From Parcubacteria group bacterium GW2011_GWA2_51_10 (GTDB taxonomy: Bacteria > Patescibacteriota > Minisyncoccia > Phycocordibacterales > UBA2100): a stretch of 64,000 nucleotides of DNA. The stretch spans positions 2,324 through 66,323 of the forward strand of contig LCQS01000001.1 of NCBI GenBank assembly GCA_001004265.1, in the 5' to 3' direction. Within the stretch, counting starts at the first letter, position 1; the number at the start of each line of letters is the position of its first letter. Shown here in pieces: positions 20,357-21,683 of the stretch. A program made the translations under genes and the position numbers. The notes beneath the pieces are model-generated. The model did no database searches and was not told the origin of the DNA. It saw only the letters and a program-made list of their open reading frames with translations.

Positions 20357-21274
20357 ATGGCCAATCTCAAAAGCATCAAGTCGAAGATTCTTTCCTACAA
20401 AAAAACGGGGACGGTGACGCACGCGATGGAAGCGGTGTCGGCCGTCAAAATGCGCAAGTCGCAAGAGCGCGCACTTTCGATGCGGCCATATGCGCGTGCG
20501 GCTTTGCGTATGCTCGGAAGCGTATCGGGAAGCATCGATGCGCTCCGCCATCCTCTCACGCAAGAGCGAACGGCGGGAAAAGTCGGAATCATCATCATCA
20601 CGAGCGACAAGGGGCTTGCGGGCTCACTCAATTCCGCCGTCATGAGGAAAACGGAGCAGTTTATTCTGGAAGCAAATCTCTCAAGCAACGAGCTCGCGTT
20701 CTTTTGTCTCGGGAAGCGCGGGTATGAATTCGCGCTCCGTCGCGGGTTTGAAGTCATGCATCAGCACACGAACATATCGGATGGCATAGACGAGATAGAG
20801 TTCCACAAGATAACAGACAAAGTTATCGAGCTACAGATGAGTGGAGCTCTGCGCGAGGTGCGCGTCGCATACACTGATTTTCGCTCCACATTCGAGCAGC
20901 AGGCCGCGATGCACAAGATTTTACCGCTTTCGCAAAAAATTATGGAGTATATCGTGAAAGAAATCCCACCTGATAGGGGAAAGTACGCAGAAATGGCGGA
21001 GGAAATCAACGGTGTCCAGAGCTATACAATAGAGCCGGAGCCAGAAGCGGTTCTCGCGGCGCTCCTCCCGAAGCTTGTTAACGTCGCCATTTTTCATAAG
21101 CTCCTCGAGTCGAAGGCGTCGGAACATTCGGCACGCATGGTCGCGATGAAGAATGCCACCGACAAGGCAAGAGAGATGACGCAAAGTCTCACGCGCACGT
21201 TCAACAAAGTTCGGCAGGCAGCGATTACACGCGAGGTATCAGAGATTACAAGCGGAATCGAAGCGATGCGTTAA
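20357..21274 (+). CDS. atpG: F-type ATP synthase subunit gamma
   Basis: N-terminal I.SIK.T.KIT.AM-like helix (IKSKILSYKKTGTVTHAMEAVSAVKM) and C-terminal helix (ARMVAMKNATDKA...ITREVSEI). Confidence 0.9.
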   Translation: MANLKSIKSKILSYKKTGTVTHAMEAVSAVKMRKSQERALSMRPYARAALRMLGSVSGSIDALRHPLTQERTAGKVGIIIITSDKGLAGSLNSAVMRKTEQFILEANLSSNELAFFCLGKRGYEFALRRGFEVMHQHTNISDGIDEIEFHKITDKVIELQMSGALREVRVAYTDFRSTFEQQAAMHKILPLSQKIMEYIVKEIPPDRGKYAEMAEEINGVQSYTIEPEPEAVLAALLPKLVNVAIFHKLLESKASEHSARMVAMKNATDKAREMTQSLTRTFNKVRQAAITREVSEITSGIEAMR

Positions 21275-21275
21275 T

Positions 21276-21683
21276 ATGGAGCGCCCCGGAGTCGGAGTCG
21301 GTGTTTGCATCAAATATGACGGCAAGGTCCTTTTCGGTAAGAGGAAAAATTGCGTGGGCGCCGGTATGTGGGGCTTTCCTGGGGGACATCTTGAAATGTA
21401 TGAGGATCCGGCAGATTGCGCCAAACGCGAAATTCTTGAAGAAACGGGACTTGAATTGGAGAATGTTCGATATGCGGGATATACGAATACTTTCCAGCAC
21501 GACATACGTGAGCATTATGTGACGCTCTATTTCTCGGCTGATTCGCTATCTGGAGATGCGCGGAACGCCGAACCGGATAAATGTGATGCTCTCGAATGGC
21601 GAGAATGGGACAGACTTCCTGCTCCGCTCTTTTGGGCGACTAGAAAATTCGTTGAGACCGGATATAATCCTTTCAATCTATGA
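21276..21683 (+). CDS. NUDIX hydrolase embedded between atpG and atpD
   Basis: Complete Nudix box [27 protein letters not shown]-t-ATG junction with atpG and an ATGA overlap with atpD. Confidence 0.85.

What the first reader, a model, noticed from the sequence alone, without database searches (positions are those of the whole stretch)
21272..21683. NUDIX hydrolase gene spliced into the F1 part of the ATP synthase operon
The operon order is atpB, atpE, atpF, atpH, atpA, atpG, NUDIX, atpD, atpC. The 135-aa NUDIX ORF has a full Nudix box ([24 protein letters not shown]). Its ATG follows the atpG TAA after one nucleotide (TAAtATG, 21272-21278), and its TGA overlaps the atpD ATG (ATGA, 21680-21683).

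That layout implies translational coupling with the gamma and beta subunits. This junction also lacks the repeat spacers that separate other atp genes. The canonical atp operons I know have no gene between gamma and beta. A nucleotide-diphosphate-X hydrolase co-translated with the catalytic subunits could police damaged or inhibitory adenine nucleotides, but that is speculation.
Basis: partly seen in the sequence, partly recalled or inferred. Interest (0 to 1): 0.58.

Follow-up and report, generated by a model that had tools for sequence, protein, structure and literature searches.

The report
Nudix gene nested in ATP-synthase operon
A small nucleotide-cleaning enzyme gene (NUDT15/NUDX1-type Nudix hydrolase) does sit between the gamma and beta subunit genes of the ATP synthase operon of this groundwater Parcubacteria genome. 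It is an old, frequently lost passenger of that slot among its Kaiserbacteria relatives, and nothing shows it to be part of the ATP synthase.

Summary
A 135-aa ORF (21276-21683) with an intact Nudix box lies between atpG and atpD. It starts 1 nt after the atpG stop codon, and its stop codon overlaps the atpD start codon (ATGA). Three independent assemblies give the same arrangement, so it is not a misassembly.

The protein is a confident member of the NUDT15 (MTH2) / plant NUDX1 subfamily: 43% identity, TM-score 0.93, catalytic and metal-binding residues conserved.

Among 21 related Kaiserbacteria-type lineages:
- 11 carry this Nudix gene in the same slot.
- 5 carry an RdgB/HAM1 non-canonical purine NTP pyrophosphatase there; two of these have both genes.
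- 2 more keep decayed RdgB remnants.
- 7 have neither gene intact, including the closest relative found (atpG 84% identical).

The simplest reading is an ancestral RdgB-Nudix house-cleaning pair that landed at the gamma/beta seam of the operon and has been lost repeatedly since. The seam is permissive: 24 of 67 sampled atp operons carry unrelated genes there.

Outside this clade the Nudix family has no fixed neighbours. A functional link to ATP synthase is not excluded, but nothing here supports it. The nearest characterised homologues prefer guanine-type nucleotides or isoprenoid diphosphates, not adenine nucleotides. This is a real, conserved, modestly interesting gene-order variant.

The parts
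16376..17131 (+). atpB (F0 subunit a). It is separated from atpE by a 360-nt spacer that holds a minus-strand small ORF.
   Evidence: PF00119 on the identical gene in L001; ORF.
17183..17326 (-). 47-aa predicted membrane ORF antisense to the operon, with a GGAGG site upstream and a terminator-like hairpin downstream (17165-17137).
   Evidence: Gene call in L001/L002; sequence; terminator scan. Minus-strand small ORFs sit at the same place in L175 and L176.
17492..17719 (+). atpE (c subunit)
   Evidence: PF00137.
17848..18294 (+). atpF (b subunit)
   Evidence: PF00430.
18324..18713 (+). atpH (delta subunit), short at 129 aa.
   Evidence: PF00213 OSCP E 9e-7, matching only profile positions 62-168.
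18716..20290 (+). atpA (alpha subunit)
   Evidence: PF00006/PF00306.
20357..21274 (+). atpG (gamma subunit), full length.
   Evidence: PF00231 E 2.3e-79, profile positions 1-285 of 285.
21272..21278 (+). TAAtATG junction: atpG stop codon, one base, then the Nudix start codon.
   Evidence: Read directly from the sequence.
21276..21683 (+). NUDT15/NUDX1-family Nudix hydrolase gene (135 aa).
   Evidence: PF00293 E 1.2e-22. phmmer against PDB: NUDT15 E 1.3e-29, AtNUDX1 E 1.7e-28. AF2 model pLDDT 95.4. Foldseek TM 0.93, rmsd 1.3 A, 43% identity to 5bon.
21381..21452 (+). Nudix box [24 protein letters not shown] (residues 36-59).
   Evidence: Translation. G36 G37 H38 E40 E43 R51 E52 E55 E56 are invariant in the seven slot-resident and one atpC-downstream (L108) Nudix proteins aligned.
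21680..21683 (+). ATGA overlap: atpD start codon and Nudix stop codon.
   Evidence: Read directly from the sequence. The same 4-nt overlaps occur in L149, L171 and L172.
21680..23080 (+). atpD (beta subunit)
   Evidence: PF00006 E 4e-72, plus PF02874 and PF22919.
23137..23379 (+). atpC (epsilon subunit), 80 aa, N-terminal beta-sandwich only.
   Evidence: PF02823 E 1e-17; no C-terminal domain.

Best explanation
The ORF encodes a functional NUDT15/NUDX1-type Nudix pyrophosphohydrolase. It is most likely a house-cleaning enzyme that removes non-canonical (guanine-type or otherwise modified) nucleoside triphosphates. It rides as a passenger inside the atpE-atpC transcription unit.

It descends from an RdgB(HAM1)-Nudix pair that entered the gamma/beta seam of the atp operon in an ancestor of this Kaiserbacteria-type clade. 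Different lineages have since kept both genes, one of them, or neither. The window's lineage kept only the Nudix gene.

With no spacer on either side (TAAtATG and ATGA), ribosomes finishing atpG can restart on the Nudix gene, and ribosomes finishing the Nudix gene can restart on atpD. The enzyme would then be made constitutively along with F1 subunits. It is not a subunit of the ATP synthase.

**Shown**
- Gene integrity.
- Subfamily membership.
- Conserved catalytic residues.
- Conserved slot occupancy across the clade.
- RdgB sharing the slot, and RdgB remnants.
- Repeated absence of both genes.

**Inferred**
- Co-transcription.
- Ribosome hand-over between the genes.
- The substrate class.
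- That the placement serves expression only.
For: **Identity**
- Pfam NUDIX E 1e-22.
- Full-length match to human NUDT15 (E 1.3e-29) and Arabidopsis NUDX1 (E 1.7e-28).
- AF2 model pLDDT 95.4, superposing on 5bon at TM 0.93 / 1.3 A and on 5gp0 at TM 0.92.
- Mapping through the alignment onto the residues listed in the NUDT15 paper. Conserved: G15/V16/G17 = G7/V8/G9; P46-G47-G48-H49 = P35-G36-G37-H38; E63/E66/E67 = E52/E55/E56; E113/K116 = E99/K102; Y92/T94 = Y81/T83; F135 = F119; and W136 = W120, which I added by counting along that alignment. Not conserved: L45 (F34), Y90 (E79), G137 (A121) and L138 (T122).

**Conservation in place**
- Nudix lies between atpG and atpD in L004, L012, L018, L090, L109, L149, L170, L171, L172 and L175.
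- Catalytic residues are invariant and the junctions are tight in most of these loci.

**RdgB in the same slot**
- Intact RdgB in L010, L013, L018, L174 and L175.
- An internally deleted RdgB in L012 and a 30-aa relic in L176.
- RdgB+Nudix occurs in both subclades of the atpA+G+D tree, so the pair is probably ancestral.
- Nudix and RdgB are also adjacent away from any atp gene in L152.

**Passenger status**
- No insert in L016, L169 (atpG 84% identical) or L173.
- Other cargo in the slot elsewhere: an MNT/HepT toxin-antitoxin pair, a 23S-IVS protein, small membrane proteins, HAD+ECH, ParE, NYN and a methyltransferase.
- 24 of 67 sampled operons have inserts.
- Outside the clade, the immediate neighbours of this Nudix family fall into 90 different Pfam families with no recurrent partner.
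- No plus-strand terminator-like site lies between atpG and atpD.
- Composition is only mildly different from the atp genes: GC3 0.46 against 0.50-0.64, and codon score within the local range.
Against: - There are no expression data, so co-transcription and coupling are inferred from geometry alone.
- The substrate is unknown. NUDT15 and NUDX1 are promiscuous (dGTP, 6-thio-GTP, GPP/IPP), and 4 of the roughly 19 mapped ligand-contact residues differ.
- Monophyly of the slot-resident Nudix proteins is only weakly supported. All 11 cluster together with one interloper (L160), but bootstrap support is 11% for exact monophyly. More than one insertion event therefore cannot be excluded.
- Long retention of two different purine-NTP sanitising genes at exactly this position, plus a separate case of the same Nudix family placed directly after atpC in a distant Patescibacteria lineage (L108), could reflect selection for co-expression with the ATP synthase rather than neutral hitch-hiking.
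Confidence: 0.7

Rival explanations
1. Functional partnership with the ATP synthase, an extension of the first reader's idea. The Nudix enzyme (and RdgB in relatives) is co-expressed with F1 because it clears non-canonical purine nucleotides (ITP/XTP, oxidised or otherwise modified GTP/ATP). F1 would otherwise make these from damaged NDPs, or be inhibited by them. This could matter in organisms that salvage nucleotides and may run F1Fo in reverse.
For: - Two mechanistically unrelated purine-NTP sanitising enzymes (Nudix and RdgB) recur in the same slot in 14 of 21 lineages over deep divergence (atpG down to about 55% identity).
- Start/stop overlaps with atpG and atpD are conserved.
- The same Nudix family sits directly after atpC in a distant lineage, L108.
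Against: - The slot is empty or holds unrelated cargo in 7 of 21 clade members, including the nearest relative.
- A single ancestral insertion of an RdgB-Nudix pair explains the co-occurrence without any link to F1.
- Among the 78 distinct loci returned by the metagenome scan for this Nudix family, only four lineages had it in or next to an atp operon (three in the slot, one after atpC).
- Characterised homologues prefer guanine-type or isoprenoid substrates, not adenine nucleotides.
- No literature links Nudix genes to atp operons.
Confidence: 0.1
2. The enzyme is not a nucleotide sanitiser. It is an NUDX1-like phosphohydrolase acting on isoprenoid diphosphates (IPP/GPP/FPP) or on dihydroneopterin triphosphate. 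Its place in the atp operon is incidental.
For: - It is equally close to plant NUDX1 (E 1.7e-28, TM 0.92) and to NUDT15.
- Both enzymes hydrolyse isoprenoid diphosphates, and the His49-equivalent residue crucial for GPP hydrolysis (H38) is conserved.
Against: - Pairing with RdgB, a dedicated non-canonical purine NTPase, both in the slot and away from atp genes (L152), points to nucleotide substrates.
- No isoprenoid or folate pathway genes lie nearby in the window or in any locus examined.
Confidence: 0.1
3. The slot is a landing pad for mobile or defence-type cargo, and the Nudix gene is one such selfish or defence gene rather than a housekeeping enzyme.
For: - The slot contents vary widely and include an MNT/HepT toxin-antitoxin pair (L010), a ParE toxin (L061) and a 23S-IVS protein (L017).
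- The Nudix protein matches the PADLOC candidate model PDC-S07 at E 2.6e-14, 51 bits.
Against: - The PADLOC score is half the score to NUDT15 (106 bits) and covers only the generic Nudix core.
- No integrase, transposase or flanking repeat is present; there is no spacer at all.
- The Nudix gene broadly tracks the host clade.
- Its composition is close to that of neighbouring genes.
Confidence: 0.05
4. Assembly artefact or decaying pseudogene.
For: None found.
Against: - Three independent assemblies share the arrangement.
- The ORF is intact with a full catalytic motif, and the structure model has pLDDT 95.
- Orthologues sit in the same slot in 10 other lineages.
Confidence: 0.01

Closest known systems
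Human NUDT15 (MTH2), PDB 5bon/5lpg
   Same: - 43% identity over the whole length, E 1.3e-29, TM 0.93, rmsd 1.3 A.
- Nudix box, Mg ligands (E63/E66/E67/E113/K116) and His49 are all conserved.
- The GVGVG N-terminal strand and the C-terminal LFW...GYNPF motif are shared.
   Different: - The window protein is bacterial and 135 aa, without the NUDT15 N- and C-terminal extensions.
- L45, Y90, G137 and L138 of the base pocket are F, E, A and T here.
- Its activity is untested.
- It is encoded inside an atp operon.
Arabidopsis / rose NUDX1 (PDB 5gp0, 6dby, 6ypb)
   Same: - 37-38% identity, E 1.7e-28, TM 0.92.
- Similar size (about 140-150 aa against 135) and the same C-terminal motif.
   Different: - The plant enzymes are known for isoprenoid diphosphate hydrolysis; activity on 8-oxo-dGTP, DHNTP and NADH is recalled from my own knowledge.
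- No such pathway context is present here.
E. coli MutT (8-oxo-dGTP diphosphatase, TIGR00586 / PRK10776)
   Same: - Nudix fold and Nudix box.
- A presumed nucleotide-pool sanitising role.
- JGI auto-annotation of homologues as '8-oxo-dGTP diphosphatase'.
   Different: It scores 40 bits against a 97.9-bit cut-off, so it is not a MutT equivalog. NUDT15 itself is a poor 8-oxo-dGTPase.
RdgB/HAM1/ITPA non-canonical purine NTP pyrophosphatase (TIGR00042)
   Same: - It occupies the same atpG-atpD slot in relatives, alone or next to the Nudix gene.
- It belongs to the same functional class, house-cleaning NTP pyrophosphatases.
   Different: - It has an unrelated fold.
- It is absent from the 64-kb window.
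Canonical atpIBEFHAGDC operon
   Same: The gene order B-E-F-H-A-G-D-C is preserved.
   Different: - A non-subunit gene lies between G and D.
- A minus-strand ORF lies between B and E.
- Epsilon is truncated and delta is short.
- In Proteobacteria the F1 block atpHAGDC is reported as intact. From my own knowledge, cyanobacteria and plastids split the genes exactly at gamma | beta-epsilon, so this seam is a known evolutionary breakpoint.

Membership tests
Nudix hydrolase superfamily | Nudix box GX5EX7REUXEEXGU | tested here: met
   G37-x5-E43-x7-R51-E52-I53-x-E55-E56-x-G58-L59, read from the translation. These residues are invariant in the seven slot-resident and one atpC-downstream (L108) Nudix proteins aligned.
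Nudix hydrolase superfamily | Pfam PF00293 above its gathering score | tested here: met
   80.7 bits against 21.1, E 1.2e-22, profile positions 3-132 of 134.
Nudix hydrolase superfamily | Alpha/beta/alpha Nudix fold | tested here: met
   AF2 model pLDDT 95.4, pTM 0.88. 528 PDB matches at E<=0.001; every match listed is a Nudix enzyme.
NUDT15 / NUDX1 subfamily | Full-length sequence and structure similarity clearly above that to other Nudix subfamilies | tested here: met
   E 1e-29 to 1e-28 for NUDT15/NUDX1, against 1e-10 or weaker for MTH1 and the rest. TM 0.92-0.93 against 0.81 or less for BdRppH, MTH1 and NudC.
NUDT15 / NUDX1 subfamily | Substrate and metal residues: His49; Glu63/66/67; Glu113; Lys116; the Gly15-Val16-Gly17 strand; Tyr92/Thr94; Phe135. 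Trp136 was added from my own reading of the alignment. | tested here: met
   Equivalents are H38, E52/E55/E56, E99, K102, G7-V8-G9, Y81/T83 and F119/W120, mapped with the alignment. Exceptions: L45->F34, Y90->E79, G137->A121, L138->T122.
NUDT15 / NUDX1 subfamily | Hydrolysis of dGTP/6-thio-(d)GTP or isoprenoid diphosphates | not testable with these tools
   This needs the recombinant enzyme and a substrate screen.
MutT 8-oxo-dGTP diphosphatase (equivalog) | NCBIfam TIGR00586 / NF008044 above the curated cut-off | tested here: not met
   40.0 bits against 97.9, and 40.8 bits against 148.
F1Fo ATP synthase subunit or dedicated assembly factor | Homology to a known subunit, or universal co-occurrence with the complex in the clade | tested here: not met
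   Nudix domains are the only Pfam hits (PF00293, plus a sub-threshold match to NUDIX_4). The gene is absent from the slot in 10 of 21 clade lineages that have complete atp operons.
Member of the atp transcription unit (operon passenger) | Same strand, no intervening terminator or promoter, co-transcription | tested here: inconclusive
   - Same strand, with spacers of 1 nt and -4 nt.
- No plus-strand terminator-like site between 20357 and 21680.
- One promoter-like match at 21641-21668, whose TATAAT is formed by the conserved Tyr-Asn codons of GYNP.
- No RNA data.
PADLOC defence candidate PDC-S07 | Match to the model plus a defence-island context | tested here: inconclusive
   51 bits, E 2.6e-14, over the generic Nudix core only. 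The context is an atp operon, not a defence island.

The most novel reading that the evidence does not exclude
In Kaiserbacteria-type CPR bacteria, a two-enzyme purine-NTP sanitising module (RdgB + NUDT15-like Nudix) is selectively kept inside the F1 gene block. Its products would act on the nucleotide pool that the F-type ATPase sees. They might destroy ITP/XTP or modified GTP/ATP species that F1 generates from salvaged, damaged NDPs, or that inhibit an enzyme whose epsilon subunit lacks its regulatory C-terminal domain. Embedding the genes between gamma and beta would tie their dosage to F1 synthesis.
Probability: 0.08. Interest if true: 0.65.

Novelty: new member of a known kind. Interest (0 to 1): 0.3.

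Why it matters
If the arrangement is only hitch-hiking, it is still a clean, datable example of how streamlined CPR genomes park housekeeping genes inside essential operons. It also shows that the gamma/beta junction of the atp operon is a permissive seam: one third of the sampled operons carry cargo there.

It gives a guilt-by-association clue (RdgB) that this widespread but uncharacterised CPR/DPANN Nudix family works in nucleotide-pool sanitation. It is a bacterial NUDT15/NUDX1 homologue that is easy to test biochemically.

If the minority reading were true, it would reveal an unrecognised dependency between nucleotide quality control and rotary ATPase function in organisms whose energy metabolism is still debated.

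Tried and rejected
- **Misassembly or pseudogene:** rejected. Three assemblies agree, the ORF is intact, and orthologues exist.
- **Recent horizontal acquisition:** composition and codon usage are only mildly different from neighbouring genes, so no call is possible.
- **RdgB or the coiled-coil slot proteins elsewhere in the 64-kb window:** none found. The rest of the genome could not be searched.
- **Strict monophyly of slot-resident Nudix proteins:** NJ with bootstrap on about 135 aa gave 5% with 7 members and 11% with 11 members, although all 11 cluster with a single interloper. This is inconclusive and was used only as weak support.
- **Conserved neighbour of the Nudix family outside the clade:** none. 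109 neighbours were scanned, falling into 90 Pfam families.
- **Nucleotide-metabolism theme in slot cargo of other phyla:** rejected. The Chloroflexi HAD proteins look like generic sugar-phosphatase-type HAD-IA enzymes, and the L028 NDT-like hit is below threshold.
- **Rfam:** only two tRNAs in the window, and no RNA element in the operon.
- **Shine-Dalgarno argument for coupling:** abandoned, because the genome is SD-poor overall.
- **Internal promoter at 21641-21668:** discounted, because its -10 hexamer is simply the Tyr-Asn codons of the conserved GYNP motif.
- **Literature:** searches for Nudix with atp operon, ATP synthase operon, Parcubacteria or CPR found nothing relevant.
- **dN/dS:** not attempted, because orthologues are at most 62% identical and synonymous sites would be saturated.
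Full report
**1. What is in the sequence.**
- The window is Parcubacteria group bacterium GW2011_GWA2_51_10; the ORF product is identical to the NCBI protein UY63_C0001G0031.
- The 135-aa ORF at 21276-21683 (+) is real.
- The atpG stop codon TAA is at 21272-21274, one t follows, and the ORF's ATG is at 21276. 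Its TGA overlaps the atpD ATG in ATGA at 21680-21683.
- Pfam confirms atpG (E 2e-79, full profile), atpD, atpC and a NUDIX domain (E 1.2e-22) in the ORF. Gene calls on identical contigs confirm atpB, E, F, H and A upstream.
- The Nudix box G37-x5-E43-x7-R51-E52-I-x-E55-E56-x-G58-L59 is complete.
- The same 8.5 kb occurs at 99.99-100% identity in three contigs assembled independently from different samples, so misassembly is excluded.
- The 'repeat spacers' are a (TAGNAAG)n heptamer motif confined to intergenic spacers all over the window: 22 matches against 0.05 expected. They are present at the atpF/atpH and atpD/atpC junctions and absent from the gamma/Nudix/beta junctions, which have no spacer.

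**2. What the protein is.**
- No NCBIfam equivalog reaches its cut-off. MutT scores 40 bits against 97.9.
- Against PDB sequences, the best matches cover the full length. They are human NUDT15/MTH2 (E 1.3e-29) and Arabidopsis NUDX1 (E 1.7e-28), followed by rose NUDX1. MTH1 and the rest are at 1e-10 or weaker.
- An AlphaFold2 model built on 43 homologues has mean pLDDT 95.4. It superposes on NUDT15 at TM 0.93 / 1.3 A / 43% identity, and on NUDX1 at TM 0.92.
- I mapped the residues that the NUDT15-geranyl-phosphate paper lists for metal and ligand binding through the alignment.
  - Conserved: His49, Glu63/66/67, Glu113, Lys116, the Gly-Val-Gly strand, Pro46-Gly47-Gly48, Tyr92, Thr94 and Phe135. 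Trp136, which I added by counting along that alignment, is also conserved.
  - Different: Leu45, Tyr90, Gly137 and Leu138.
- NUDT15 prefers substrates other than 8-oxo-dGTP, and both NUDT15 and NUDX1 hydrolyse isoprenoid diphosphates. The family is established; the substrate is not.

**3. Is the placement conserved?** I collected relatives in four ways:
- atpG-anchored loci from one genome per GTDB species;
- Nudix-anchored loci from metagenomes;
- the contigs carrying the closest Nudix homologues;
- the contigs carrying the closest atpG homologues.

Contents of the atpG-atpD gap were read with tblastn and ORF scripts and with Pfam/NCBIfam. The 21 lineages tallied are these: 17 that form one clade in an atpA+atpG+atpD neighbour-joining tree, plus four fragmentary or incomplete loci (L004, L009, L149, L170) whose atpG is 56-78% identical to the window's.

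| Slot content | Lineages |
|---|---|
| Nudix, without intact RdgB | window, L109, L170, L171; with extra ORFs: L004, L090, L149, L172; with an RdgB remnant: L012 |
| RdgB + Nudix | L018, L175 |
| RdgB, without Nudix | L010, L013, L174 |
| Neither gene intact | L009 (contig ends), L011, L016, L017, L169, L173, L176 |

- In total, Nudix is in the slot in 11 lineages and intact RdgB in 5.
- L012 keeps an RdgB with residues about 32-153 deleted. L176 keeps a 30-aa N-terminal relic that is 80% identical to L013's RdgB.
- Among the lineages with neither gene, L169 is the closest relative found (atpG 84% identical). There atpD follows atpG after 48 nt.
- RdgB+Nudix occurs in both major subclades.
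- The RdgB proteins are 53-54% identical to one another, similar to the Nudix proteins.
- All 11 slot Nudix proteins fall into one neighbourhood of the family tree with a single interloper, though with low bootstrap support.
- The simplest history is one ancestral insertion of an RdgB-Nudix pair followed by repeated loss.

**4. Is the junction special?**
- Of 67 GTDB loci that had both atpG and atpD, 24 carry more than 250 nt between them.
- The cargo includes:
  - an MNT/HepT toxin-antitoxin pair;
  - a 23S-IVS protein;
  - small membrane proteins in other Paceibacteria;
  - HAD phosphatase with or without enoyl-CoA hydratase in four Chloroflexi;
  - ParE, NYN and a methyltransferase in Verrucomicrobia.
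- Several Chthoniobacterales loci have no atpD within 6 kb downstream of atpG.
- In Proteobacteria the F1 block is reported as intact. From my own knowledge, cyanobacteria and plastids split the genes exactly between gamma and beta.
- The gamma/beta boundary is thus a permissive seam, which explains why cargo accumulates there.

**5. Does the Nudix family go with atp genes in general?**
- No. The second-closest homologue, P0003 (55% identity), lies among unrelated genes.
- Of 78 distinct metagenome loci of the family, three are in the slot. One lineage (L108/L110) has the gene directly after atpC. One (L152) has it next to RdgB but far from atp genes.
- 109 immediate neighbours fall into 90 Pfam families with no recurrent partner.
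- The only meaningful association is therefore with RdgB, a dedicated ITP/XTP pyrophosphatase that passes the TIGR00042 cut-off. This favours a nucleotide-sanitising role.

**6. How it most likely works.**
- **Shown:**
  - an intact NUDT15/NUDX1-type enzyme gene;
  - no spacer between it and its flanking F1 genes;
  - conservation for a long time in the clade;
  - dispensability at this position.
- **Inferred:**
  - It is transcribed with atpE-atpC. No plus-strand terminator-like site lies between atpG and atpD. The one promoter-like match, at 21641-21668, is formed by the Tyr-Asn codons of the conserved GYNP motif.
  - Ribosomes pass from atpG to the Nudix gene to atpD by termination-reinitiation. 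The genome is Shine-Dalgarno-poor (9 of 46 ORFs), and none of the atp genes has an SD.
- Beta is needed at three copies per gamma, so atpD must also initiate independently. The 3' end of the Nudix gene therefore doubles as the atpD initiation region.
- The enzyme would be made constitutively at roughly F1-like levels and would hydrolyse non-canonical NTPs. It is not an ATP synthase subunit.

**7. Rivals.**
- **A true functional tie to F1.**
  - For: recurrence of two purine-NTP sanitising enzymes at this position, and the independent post-atpC case.
  - Against: a single ancestral insertion explains the first point; the slot is often empty; and the family's known substrates are not adenine nucleotides. 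I give it about 0.1.
- **An isoprenoid-diphosphate or DHNTP role** is possible on family grounds but does not fit the RdgB pairing (about 0.1).
- **A defence or mobile reading** rests on a generic 51-bit PADLOC match and on toxin-antitoxin genes in the slot elsewhere. There are no mobility genes or repeats, and the gene broadly tracks the host clade (about 0.05).

**8. Novelty and score.**
- Literature searches found no report of Nudix or RdgB genes inside atp operons.
- The enzyme is an ordinary new member of a known subfamily. The arrangement is an undocumented but unsurprising operon variant in streamlined genomes.
- Interest is 0.3. A specialist would find the clade-wide RdgB/Nudix slot and its decay series neat, but not very surprising.

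Noticed in passing
window 33430-36807 (+): The 1125-aa leucyl-tRNA synthetase ORF carries two extra in-frame domains flanking the editing domain. One is an alpha/beta 'Ser_hydrolase' (residues 244-404, E 5e-9). The other is a NUDIX domain (residues 585-681, E 1e-10). This recalls the Nudix-interrupted IleRS described for SR1 (PMC3812714). This Nudix domain is only about 25% identical to the atp-slot Nudix protein.
   Followed up: partly
window 7067-7149, 14654-14684, 18285-18301, 23064-23137, 23424-23447, 46743-46773, 48882-48912: A tandem heptamer motif (TAGNAAG)n, rich in stop codons, is confined to intergenic spacers: 22 matches against 0.05 expected. At 7067-7149 and 23064-23137 it forms inverted pairs; the atpD/atpC pair has 27-nt arms that are 89% complementary. 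Its function is unknown.
   Followed up: partly
window 17132-17491 (minus-strand ORF 17183-17326): The 360-nt atpB-atpE spacer holds a minus-strand 47-aa predicted membrane protein. It has a perfect GGAGG site and a strong terminator-like hairpin (17165-17137). This probably uncouples atpB from the rest of the operon. Minus-strand small ORFs (82-89 aa) sit at the same place in L175 and L176.
   Followed up: partly
window 23137-23379 and 18324-18713: Epsilon is only 80 aa: it has the N-terminal beta-sandwich but no C-terminal regulatory helices. Delta is 129 aa and matches only the C-terminal two thirds of OSCP. Relatives share the 79-83-aa epsilon, whereas the distant L108 has a 144-aa epsilon.
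   Followed up: no
window 16262-16337: Two 31-nt direct repeats, 97% identical and 45 nt apart, lie just upstream of atpB. Each contains the hairpin CCCAGAGGTCGGTTCTCTGGG.
   Followed up: no
L004 830-1102; L009 5511-5861; L011 7266-7604: A conserved small coiled-coil protein with no Pfam match and the C-terminal motif ...LxxEYAAVKxQLARHEEWIxxLAKKxxVKL recurs in the atpG-atpD slot of three relatives, in L004 alongside the Nudix gene. Several other unannotated acidic helical proteins (u93-u203) also live in the slot.
   Followed up: partly
L055, L065, L077, L080 (Chloroflexi); L061, L064, L079 (Verrucomicrobia); L024, L030, L034, L037, L039, L045, L090 (Paceibacteria): The gamma/beta junction carries other cargo in other phyla. 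Chloroflexi have a HAD-IA phosphatase with or without enoyl-CoA hydratase, conserved in four loci. Verrucomicrobia have a ParE toxin, a methyltransferase and a NYN domain protein. Paceibacteria have small membrane proteins of 64-131 aa that could be lineage-specific accessory subunits.
   Followed up: partly
window 43431-43934 (+): A third Nudix gene (167 aa, PF00293 E 3e-20; weak best NCBIfam match to NAD+ diphosphatase) lies next to an RNase T-like exonuclease gene (42769-43362).
   Followed up: no
window 23390/23453-23752 (+): An RNHCP-domain gene directly follows atpC (PF12647, E 5e-28). It keeps that position in L090, L169 and L171, and lies one gene further downstream in L176. It is another conserved passenger at the 3' end of the operon.
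   Followed up: no
whole window: Only 9 of 46 long ORFs have any Shine-Dalgarno-like tetramer upstream, and only 3 have a strong one. Translation initiation in this organism is therefore largely SD-independent.
   Followed up: partly
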